Shown: positions 60,301 to 63,300 of the stretch, one piece after another | Layout of the letters: each line of letters begins with the position of its first letter | Numbering within the stretch: position 1 is the first letter of the stretch | Origin: Malacoraja senta | Taxonomy: Eukaryota | Direction of reading: 5' to 3' | DNA: 64,000 nt | NCBI GenBank assembly: GCA_038087875.1 | Contig: CM075991.1 | Coordinates: forward strand, 12,092,001-12,156,000 | Translations under genes and position numbers: made by a program | Notes under the pieces: generated by a model | What the model was told of the DNA's origin: nothing | The model's input: only the letters and a program-made list of their open reading frames with translations | The model's database searches: none

Positions 60301-63300
60301 GGTTCACCAGACTGATTCCTGGGATGTCAGGACTGTCTTATGAAGAAAGACTGGATAGACTTGGTTTATACTCTCTAGAATTTAGGAGATTGAGAGGGGA
60401 TCTTATAGAAACTTACAAAATTCTTAAGGGGTTGGACAGGCTAGATGCAGGAAGATTGCTCACGATGTTGGGGAAGTCCAGGACAAGGGGTCACAGCTTA
60501 AGGATAAGGGGGAAATCCTTTAAAACCGAGATGAGAAGAACTTTTTTCACACAGAGAGTGGTGAATCTCTGGAACTCTCTGCCACAGAGGGTAGTCGAGG
60601 CCAGTTCATTGGCTATATTTAAGAGGGAGCTAGATGTGGCCCTTGTGGCTAAAGGGATCAGAGGGTATGGAGAGAAGGCAGGTACGGGATACTGAGTTGG
60701 ATGATCAGCCATGATCATATTGAATGGCGGTGCAGGCTCGAAGGGCCGAATGGCCTACTCCTGCACCTAATTTCTATGTTTCTATGTTTCTAATATATAT
60801 ATATATATATATATACACACACACACACACACAATGCATATATTAATGATTTTAATATGAATGTAGGAAATAATGTTTAGTAATTTGTAGATCGGTAGTG
60901 TGTTTAATGATAACAGGACAGATGCACAGACCAATGGCAGATGGAATTTAATCCTGATTAGTGTGAACAAAAGTAGAAATGGGTCATTTCCAAAATTACA
61001 TGAAAATGACTGCATGAAATACTAATATAAAAAAGTTCTCTACCAATCGTGTATTTCATGCCAATTTCACTGCAACACTATATTGAAGGGGTTAGAAGCA
61101 ATGGGCCAAAGGGGATTAGCCCAATATGCCAAATTGGTCGGCATGGGCAAGGTGGGATGAAGGGCCAGTTCTACGACTCTCTGACAGCCCACTATTGTTT
61201 TGTTTCTACATATTTCATTCGGTCATGCACTAATATCTTACTGTCCAAACCTCTCCCAATCACAGGCTTTCCCATTTATTCTCTAGCACGGCTTTACACT
61301 TGCTCAATAGTTGCAGATATTTAACATTATCCAATTCTGACAACGTTTTATTGACCTGCAACTTTAATTCTATTTCTCTATTCACAGAGGCTGCTGACAG
61401 GTGTAGCATTTTCAATTTATTGCACAAAATACTCACCAGTCTATCTATGATTTTAAGCAATATATTTAATCTGTCGAGTCTGTGGTCAATATTTTCCCAA
61501 AACGATGGCAGAGCAGCCACAGGTTTTGTGTCACACCAGAGGAGGTAATAATAGTAGTTTCCTGCAAGCATAGGATAACATAGGGTTAGTGACCCTGAAA
61601 CTAACTGGCATAATCAGACTTTTATTTGTACAAATTCAAACTTTATCTCTTAAAACCACACTAAACTTTGGTTAAGTTAAATTATTTCACAGAAAATAAG
61701 TTTTAATTCTCATCAGTAAGCGCTTATACTTTTTCACTCCAGCTTTACCCTCCAGTTGTACAGGAAAATGGAACCTGAGCATTCATTTTGTTTATCGGGG
61801 TGGGAGATTGCAGCCTTCACTTGGTCTGCCCTGTTTCGACAAATGCAATCAACCTGGTGTGCCCCATCAAGTAAGATCAAATAGAACAAGTTGTTCTACA
61901 ACTTTAGGCTGTGCACGCCATACGCAAGAAGAAGAAGAAGATTTTGTTTATCAATCTCTGCTGCCTGACTTGCTAGGTGTTTTCAGCATTACCTGGAATT
62001 TTAAGGTAGACAAAAATACTGGGTGAGGCATTTATTTCCTTAGCTCCATAGATGCTGCCTCGCCCGCTGTGTTTCTCCAGCAAATTTGTCTACCTTCGAT
62101 TTTCCAGCATCTGCAGTTCCTTCTTAAACACCTGGAATTTTAACATGGGGTTTCTGCAGTATTTTCCCTTAGTTTTGATGATCAAATCAAATCTAACGTA
62201 GGTGCAGAGTTCTCCCAGGGCCCTGCTGCATTAAAAAAATGACCAAACGTGCGTTCACCTCGCTGCTGATTGTAGGAGCTTGCTGTGTACAAATTAGTTG
62301 GCAGTGTGTCAAATAGTTTATGATTTATCCTCACCAGGACATAAAGCTTCAAAATAATTAATTGCTACTTCGTGGGGCAGAAAGAAGAGGAGTGGTCTTG
62401 AGACTATGAAATGCACCAGATAAATGTCTCTTTCTATTATTCATTTGTATGATTCGGTTTTGGACTTGCAGCTGTCTCATTCCAATAGTTTTTTTTTTAA
62501 GTTTGGACCTACATTGTATTCTGCAGATGAGCTGAGGAGAATTATTAATAAAGGCTTTAGCCAATAATATTAATATTCCAAAGGCCAACGAGAAAAAAAA
62601 TGTTTTAACACCGCTGATACCGTGTTAGCAAATACATTTTGTATTTCAACATGCATTTTGATTTAACAATGAATCTGACAAAATGCAGTTATTGCAATTA
62701 TTGTGCGTAAACTATTGCCTTTGATTATGGATATGTTCAGAACAGATACATGATGTTACCGGGGTAATGTGGAGATCTGTGGGATGAGCTCATATTAACC
62801 TCAGTTCTAAATTAACTTTAGTTTTAGTTGAATTTAGAGATACAGCATGGAAACAAGACCTTGGACCCATCCAGTCCACACCAACCCATACACTCGTTCC
62901 ATGTAATCCCAGTTTTGCATCCTACACACTAGGTGCCATTTACAGAAGCCAATTAACCTACAAAACTGTACGCTTTTGCAATGTGGGAGGAAACCGGAGC
63001 ACCCGGAGAAAACCCACGTGGTCACAGGGAGAACGTACAAACTCCGTACAGACAGAACCTATAGTCAGGATCGAACCCGGGTCCTTGACGCGGTAAAGCA
63101 GCAACTCTACTGCTGCTCCACTGTGCCCTATCTCGTAACAAAAAAAATCAAGCACTATAAAACAATCAGACTTTGTACAGGTCATCTTCACGTTACAAAC
63201 GTCTGACTTGTGGATACCCTTACAAACAAATGGGCTCCCATAATATCATTACATTCAAAAGTTCGACACACACATACATTTGTTTCTATAAACAGCAGAA

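What the first reader, a model, noticed from the sequence alone, without database searches (positions are those of the whole stretch)
61785..61952. Second copy: a perfect 12-bp TSD places the insertion boundary exactly at the predicted cleavage site
Seen: ATTTTGTTTATC|GGGGTGGGAG...CCATACGC(AAG)5|ATTTTGTTTATC. An independent insertion in the opposite orientation begins at the same G1 as copy 1. Its stem substitutions (P1' CUGCCCU, P3 GCC) become G-U wobbles rather than mismatches, and the catalytic C (61840) is retained. Established: TSD plus a simple-repeat tail indicates target-primed reverse transcription, and 12-bp TSDs are typical of trypanosome ingi/RIME. Inference: the mobilised RNA was the 3' cleavage product. 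Two copies in 64 kb hint at an abundant family.
Basis: partly seen in the sequence, partly recalled or inferred. Interest (0 to 1): 0.85.

Follow-up and report, generated by a model that had tools for sequence, protein, structure and literature searches.

The report
Ribozyme-headed mini-retrotransposon, thousands of copies
This is one copy of a 130-base mobile element, present thousands of times in this animal genome, made of the two ends of a longer retrotransposon and starting exactly at a predicted self-cutting RNA that likely sets where each copy begins.

Summary
Observation confirmed. The 12-bp duplication is a true target-site duplication: runs of two other organisms hold the empty site with one copy of it. 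The element belongs to a family of at least 4,620 copies (roughly 15,000 by overlap). Of 29 distinct copies picked on their 3' half alone, 27 start at G1, and upstream flanks are unrelated. I found the autonomous partner: a 3.1-kb single-ORF endonuclease/reverse-transcriptase LINE without RNase H (Vingi type) that shares the 5' ribozyme and the last ~31 nt. The 54-nt head fits the HDV double pseudoknot with P4 cut to a stub; the same fold with different stem sequences sits upstream of 6 of 20 distant relatives (0 of 500 shuffles). Cleavage was not tested, and an internal promoter starting at G1 is not excluded. The kind is known (NARTc/RIME, R2 SIDEs, internally deleted Vingi); a Vingi ribozyme, and a near-minimal one in a vertebrate-type genome, is not stated in the papers I could read.

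The parts
61785..61796 (+). Left target-site duplication (12 bp)
   Evidence: empty site holds one copy
61797..61850 (+). Predicted HDV-like ribozyme, 54 nt: P1 61797-61803/61826-61832 (G1-U wobble), P2 61806-61812/61844-61850, P3 61813-61815/61823-61825, L3 61816-61822, P4 reduced to a 2-bp UUCG stub, J4/2 61840-61843
   Evidence: descriptor match for family-type copy; stems listed; same fold in distant relatives. Rfam: no relevant hit
61821..61821 (+). G25U change in L3 of this copy; probably inactivating
   Evidence: G in 48 of 53 copies; G25A and G25 6-thio impair cleavage in PMC13635239 (passages)
61840..61840 (+). Predicted catalytic cytosine (C75 equivalent), retained
61851..61873 (+). 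Remainder derived from the LINE 5' UTR; includes the 5' arm (61855-61865) of a 5'-3' stem
   Evidence: BLAST of a family copy to LINE loci, positions 4-77; fold
61874..61895 (+). Middle segment specific to this subfamily; origin not found in the LINE copies searched
61896..61925 (+). LINE 3' end: last three ORF codons, stop and 3' UTR; includes 3' arm (61910-61920) of the stem
   Evidence: up to 31 of 31 identical to LINE 3' ends
61926..61940 (+). (AAG)5 tail
   Evidence: same tail on LINE copies
61941..61952 (+). Right target-site duplication
31907..32045 (-). Copy 1: sister subfamily with an intact ribozyme core, lying sense in a ferlin-gene intron (inferred from flanking exons)
   Evidence: ferlin domains on minus strand on both sides

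Best explanation
This is a 130-bp non-coding element built from the 5' and 3' ends of a Vingi-type LINE of the same genome, likely copied in trans by that LINE's protein through target-primed reverse transcription, with its 5' end likely set by self-cleavage of a predicted HDV-like ribozyme. Shown: shared ends with the LINE, tail, target-site duplications, empty orthologous site, uniform start at G1. Inferred: a copy transcribed from a host promoter (for example in an intron) cuts itself 5' of G1; the released RNA is bound by the LINE protein, primed at the (AAG)n tail and copied to its 5' end, so every new copy carries the whole ribozyme. Inferred: a stem between the 5' UTR and the 3' end holds both ends near the target. 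The focal copy itself has decayed (8 of 130 differences from the majority) and is probably a poor cleaver.
For: Start at G1 in 27 of 29 distinct copies chosen on the 3' 61 nt only and 107 of 120 short elements overall. TSDs in 85 of 112 (control 2 of 600), 10-13 bp in 72 of 85, 71 of 85 abutting G1; extra letters ending in G at the junction in only 6 of 85, so no strong cap signature. Empty site in X19 and X23. LINE 3' ends identical to the element's last ~31 nt; near-full-length LINE L260 runs ribozyme, UTR, endonuclease, RT, C-terminal Cys/His motif; its 74%-identical relative P0001 has no RNase H hit while an I/Nimb-type control does. A second short subfamily is a plain LINE-5'/LINE-3' fusion. 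HDV fold with different stem sequences upstream of 6 of 20 relatives' ORFs, 0 of 20 antisense, 0 of 500 shuffles. One of them (L330) matches the 5' end of Repbase Vingi-2_Gav at 34 of 36 nt, compared by eye with the supplement of PMC5786205. LINE-to-SINE changes inside the ribozyme are structure-neutral (A32G gives U-G; position 45 is the variable J4/2 base).
Against: No cleavage assay or raw RNA reads; only Logan contigs were served. Rfam finds no ribozyme family, even at E 10, and plain folding of the full element is not significant (z -1.25 to -1.46; +0.50 for the focal copy; pseudoknots are not modelled). The relatives' stems pair by construction of the descriptor, and 14 of 20 gave no hit. 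In 32 of 71 abutting copies the target base after the duplication is G, so their boundary is ambiguous by one base (not the focal copy). All LINE copies seen are broken. Copy samples lean to young copies. Vingi membership rests on architecture and one 5'-end match, not on a tree with labelled references.
Confidence: 0.8

Rival explanations
1. Same element, but the uniform 5' end comes from an internal promoter that starts transcription at G1; the ribozyme is a back-up or a relic.
For: L1Tc/NARTc Pr77 is both promoter and ribozyme with the start at +1 (PMC3383444, passages). P4 is nearly absent and P1.1 is a single canonical pair, which could make cleavage slow.
Against: Extra 5' G in at most 6 of 85 copies; that capped RNAs often leave an extra G is recalled knowledge. 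Catalytic C, L3 and stems are kept across LINE, subfamilies and distant relatives. The two roles are not exclusive.
Confidence: 0.12
2. The element is mobilised by another LINE with an (AAG)n tail (the RTE family or the young I/Nimb-type family) rather than by the Vingi-type LINE.
For: Both families end in (AAG)n; the I/Nimb-type family has intact 1277-aa frames, whereas the Vingi-type copies seen are all broken.
Against: Neither shares 3' sequence with the element; the Vingi-type LINE shares both ends.
Confidence: 0.05
3. The copies are chance 5' truncations of a longer element and the fold is coincidental.
For: Some truncated copies exist (3 of 30 in a set chosen for deviation; 2 of 30 without a head in another).
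Against: No shared sequence upstream of G1 apart from a T bias at -1 (66 of 112); LINE-derived inverted 5' pieces also stop within 18 nt of G1; fold recurs in distant relatives.
Confidence: 0.01

Closest known systems
Internally deleted non-autonomous Vingi derivatives (Vingi-1_EE derivatives of hedgehog; described in PMC5786205, passages; original paper not held)
   Same: 5' and 3' ends of a Vingi-type LINE fused without ORF; several parallel subfamilies
   Different: No ribozyme is attributed to Vingi in that paper (it lists R1, R2, R4, RTE, Ingi, LOA); here ~130 bp, with an altered middle and a strengthened 5'-3' stem
NARTc/L1Tc and RIME/ingi of trypanosomes (PMC3383444, PMC4035085, passages)
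   Same: Short element shares the HDV-like ribozyme head and ~30 nt of 3' end with its LINE; cleavage site at +1
   Different: Partner lacks RNase H; (AAG)n instead of poly(A) tail; 54-nt ribozyme with P4 stub instead of 77 nt; animal genome; promoter role untested
R2 SIDEs (PMC6765202, passages)
   Same: Ribozyme-headed internally deleted parasites using the LINE protein in trans
   Different: Dispersed, not rDNA-specific; APE-type partner; thousands of copies
Minimal HDV-like and theta ribozymes (PMC10879173, passages)
   Same: Nested double pseudoknot with P4 missing or vestigial
   Different: Those were ~99% confined to phages in that study's search; here it heads a retroelement in a 1.9-Gb animal genome and is not tRNA-linked

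Membership tests
HDV-like ribozyme | P1/P2/P3 nested double pseudoknot, 7-bp P1 starting at G1 | tested here: met
   stems vary yet pair in 6 relatives
HDV-like ribozyme | Catalytic C in J4/2 followed by purine-rich linker | tested here: met
   C44 in 51 of 53 copies, A46/A47 in 53 of 53
HDV-like ribozyme | L3 with U20 and G25 | tested here: met
   met for the family (G25 in 48 of 53) and copy 1; NOT met for the focal copy (G25U)
HDV-like ribozyme | Two-pair P1.1 and P4 | tested here: inconclusive
   one C-G pair plus a possible U-U; P4 only a 2-bp stub. U-U and C-U second pairs occur in fast ribozymes (PMC13635239)
HDV-like ribozyme | Match to an Rfam model | tested here: not met
HDV-like ribozyme | Self-cleavage 5' of G1 | not testable with these tools
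   needs in vitro assay or 5'-OH sequencing
Non-autonomous bipartite LINE derivative | 5' and 3' ends shared with an autonomous LINE, no ORF | tested here: met
Non-autonomous bipartite LINE derivative | TPRT marks: variable TSD, simple-repeat tail, empty orthologous site | tested here: met
Vingi clade (partner LINE) | Compact single ORF, APE endonuclease plus RT, no RNase H (PMC13708176, passages) | tested here: met
   L260 colinear with P0001 residues 22-1012; Pfam of P0001, P0020, P0058; relatives about 1000 aa
Vingi clade (partner LINE) | RT phylogeny: sister to Ingi | not tested
   no labelled Ingi/Vingi proteins in session; indirect link through L330 and Vingi-2_Gav 5' end
Classical SINE (tRNA, 7SL or 5S head) | Small-RNA-derived head with Pol III promoter | tested here: not met
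   head maps to the LINE 5' end; no Rfam small-RNA hit

The most novel reading that the evidence does not exclude
A vertebrate-type genome carries thousands of still-active, near-minimal HDV-like ribozymes spread by a Vingi parasite; sense copies in introns (such as copy 1 in a ferlin gene) cut pre-mRNA, and Vingi as a clade uses a ribozyme-defined 5' end that is tethered to its 3' end at the target site, which would explain both its many internally deleted derivatives and the inverted 5'-terminal pieces seen in 8 of 30 LINE fragments. The 130-nt element would then be a natural minimal template for Vingi-based gene writing.
Probability: 0.3. Interest if true: 0.75.

Novelty: new variant of a known kind. 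Interest (0 to 1): 0.52.

Why it matters
It adds Vingi to the LINE clades with a predicted self-cleaving 5' end, which bears on the open question in PMC5786205 of why only RTE, Ingi, Vingi and R2 yield bipartite derivatives. Vingi-1 UTRs are in use in RNA-only gene-insertion platforms (PMC13708176, passages), and the passages I saw do not mention a ribozyme there; a 130-nt natural template that outnumbers its LINE about 30-fold (4,620 against 149 exact 23-mer matches) points to the minimal cis elements. Thousands of dated natural variants of a 54-nt ribozyme are a ready mutational scan, and filled and empty sites are phylogenetic markers.

Tried and rejected
Rfam at gathering and E-value thresholds: nothing relevant. 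RTE family (DUF6451, 30 loci) and I/Nimb-type family as partner: same tail, no shared 3' sequence. A first deviant-pattern search anchored in the middle found no LINE. Single-protein search of metagenomes with P0001 found nothing; the alignment search did. Strict descriptor: 5 of 27 regions, three of them one element; relaxed: 6 of 20 non-redundant. No solved structure of a Vingi/Ingi protein. Ferlin exon search in the protein database failed; Pfam was used instead. Earlier scan notes: none. The contig look-up for database proteins was closed, so the 5' end of the closest relative P0001 was not seen. Ruminski 2011 and Kojima 2011 were not held; either may already describe ribozymes in elements now called Vingi. 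Origin of the middle 20 nt of this subfamily: not found.

Full report
Observation. The window shows the 12-bp repeat at 61785-61796 and 61941-61952 around a 129-bp body and (AAG)5. A second copy lies at 32045-31907 on the minus strand, 88% identical, starting at the same G. Laying four public runs on window 61300-62500 showed, in X19 (organism E) and X23 (organism H), contigs that join 61784 to 61941 with 12 letters fitting both sides: the empty site. Contigs of X20 (F) and X21 (G) run from the left flank about 24 nt into the element and end there, which I read as the filled site. The repeat is therefore a true target-site duplication.

Family size and boundary. The genome (1.94 Gb) gave 2,866 first-look candidates, 3,561 exact matches to the 5' 23-mer and 4,620 to a middle 23-mer. 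In the first 39.5 Mb of contig C1, 24 of 100 middle matches had an exact 5' match among 82, which extrapolates to about 15,000 copies (rough). To avoid selecting for full length I searched with the 3' 61 nt only (30 of 40 scored matches cut out): 27 of 29 distinct copies align from position 1 and 2 from positions 2-3. Over all fetched loci, 120 of 155 distinct 3' ends had the head within 260 nt (the other 35 are mostly LINE ends or truncations); 107 of 120 align from position 1. Among 112 copies aligning from position 1-2, 85 had a duplication (control 2 of 600), mode 12 bp, 10-13 bp in 72; 71 of 85 abut G1; in 32 of those 71 the next target base is G, so the boundary is ambiguous by one base there, but not in the other 39, including the focal copy. 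Upstream flanks share nothing but a T at -1 (66 of 112). Extra letters ending in G occur in 6 of 85. These samples lean towards young copies.

Ribozyme. The first 54 nt fit the HDV topology (numbering by analogy with HDV is recalled knowledge): 7-bp P1 opening with a G-U wobble, 2-nt J1/2, 7-bp P2, 3-bp P3, 7-nt L3 with U20 and G25, one P1.1 pair, a 2-bp UUCG stub in place of P4, and C44 followed by G/A/U and AA. Rfam has no match, and energy folding, which ignores pseudoknots, is not significant for the whole element. Support comes from relatives: an alignment of 40 database proteins fetched 74 metagenome loci; of 20 non-redundant loci whose match reaches the N-terminus, 6 had the fold within 600 nt upstream with different P1, P2, P3 and P4 sequences, against 0 of 20 antisense and 0 of 500 shuffles. 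Pairing there is required by the descriptor, so position and controls carry the weight, and 14 of 20 had no hit (several have short or no upstream DNA). At least 15 of 30 copies in the 3'-selected set keep an intact core (fixed register). The focal copy differs from the majority at 8 of 130 positions, four in the ribozyme: A17G, G25U, C31U, G45A. G25A abolished visible cleavage and a 6-thio change cut the rate 1000-fold in a C. briggsae HDV ribozyme (PMC13635239, passages), so the focal copy is probably crippled; copy 1 is intact.

Partner LINE. A pattern demanding non-element letters upstream of the 3' end returned 56 matches; 3 of the 30 cut out were LINE ends. Their relatives (406 candidates; 149 exact 23-mers) share the element's last ~31 nt and tail. 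L260 is a near-complete 3.1-kb copy: ribozyme (first ~8 nt missing), short UTR, then a broken frame colinear with residues 22-1012 of P0001, a 1019-aa protein 74% identical over the RT, with endonuclease and RT domains and no RNase H. This is the Vingi architecture as described in PMC13708176 (passages). The supplement of PMC5786205 prints the 5' end of Vingi-2_Gav; by eye it matches the ribozyme of L330 at 34 of 36 nt and folds the same way, though that paper does not list Vingi among ribozyme-bearing clades (section 23). A second short subfamily is a plain fusion of LINE 1-96 to the 3' end. RTE and I/Nimb-type families also end in (AAG)n but share no 3' sequence.

Mechanism. Shown: structure, shared ends, insertion marks. 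Inferred: release from host transcripts by self-cleavage, trans-mobilisation, priming at the tail. Positions 59-69 pair with 114-124; the stem is 8 bp with the LINE-type 5' arm and 11 bp in the focal subfamily (duplex -15.0 versus -22.6 kcal/mol; -14.7 in the decayed focal copy; 3' part z -3.75). Of 30 LINE fragments chosen on their 3' region, 8 carry an inverted piece whose inner end lies within 18 nt of G1 and whose outer end is mostly at 60-110 nt, whatever the length of the 3' fragment; one more inverted piece covers 63-350 and one is internal. I read this as second-strand priming near a 5' end held at the target, and as independent evidence that the LINE RNA begins at G1; this is inference. 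The main rival is an internal promoter starting at G1, as in L1Tc (PMC3383444, passages).

Gene context. Ferlin-type domains on the minus strand (FerI and C2 beyond the window end, FerA near 58.6 kb, C-terminal near 24.1 kb; several below Pfam's cut-off) place the focal copy antisense, and copy 1 sense, in introns of a ferlin gene. Two more copies, both on the plus strand and both with core changes, lie in the next 40 kb. No effect on the gene was tested.

Prior knowledge. Ribozyme-headed non-autonomous derivatives are known for L1Tc/ingi and R2 (PMC4035085, PMC6765202, passages), and bipartite Vingi derivatives are known (PMC5786205). Searches for Vingi plus ribozyme, HDV-like plus shark, ribozyme plus hedgehog plus Ingi and twin priming plus Ingi found no description of this family or of a Vingi ribozyme; Ruminski 2011 and Kojima 2011 were not held, and Repbase, Dfam and patents could not be searched. 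PMC5753468 and PMC3391268 (passages) added only Vingi's distribution. Minimal HDV-like ribozymes were reported as almost confined to phages (PMC10879173, passages). Verdict: real, mechanistically coherent, a new variant of a known kind.

Noticed in passing
L195, L196, L201, L202, L212, L213, L218, L223 (also L229, L233, L239, L271): Vingi-type LINE fragments carry the extreme 5' end (ribozyme plus 60-110 nt) inverted next to a truncated 3' part: 8 of 30 loci chosen on the 3' region.
   Followed up: partly
L184:2142-5972 and L185: Very young I/Nimb-type LINE with intact 1277-aa endonuclease-RT-RNase H frames in many near-identical copies, also ending in (AAG)n.
   Followed up: partly
L061-L090: RTE-type LINE family (DUF6451) with a short 3' hairpin and (AAG)n tail; its 5' end was not examined for a ribozyme.
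   Followed up: no
window 61991-62130: A second, very abundant ~139-bp insertion beside the focal copy, with an 11-14-bp duplication; also absent in runs X19 and X23.
   Followed up: partly
window 3713, 6043 (+), 35627 (-): Short CUGAnGA...GAAAC motifs in an abundant repeat, resembling minimal hammerheads of Penelope-like elements (recalled); 8 pattern matches in the window against a shuffle mean of 1.2, maximum 5.
   Followed up: partly
L113, L121: Copies whose 5' stem arm is extended by the reverse complement of the element's own 3' end, suggesting template switching within the stem.
   Followed up: no
window 11662-11970 (+) and 24081-58876 (-): Legume-like lectin (VIP36/LMAN2-type) exon facing a ferlin gene tail to tail; resembles the LMAN2L-FER1L5 neighbourhood (recalled).
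   Followed up: partly
L125, L127, L131, L132, L143, L144, L152: Further short subfamilies with different middles between the same two LINE ends, pointing to repeated independent deletions.
   Followed up: no
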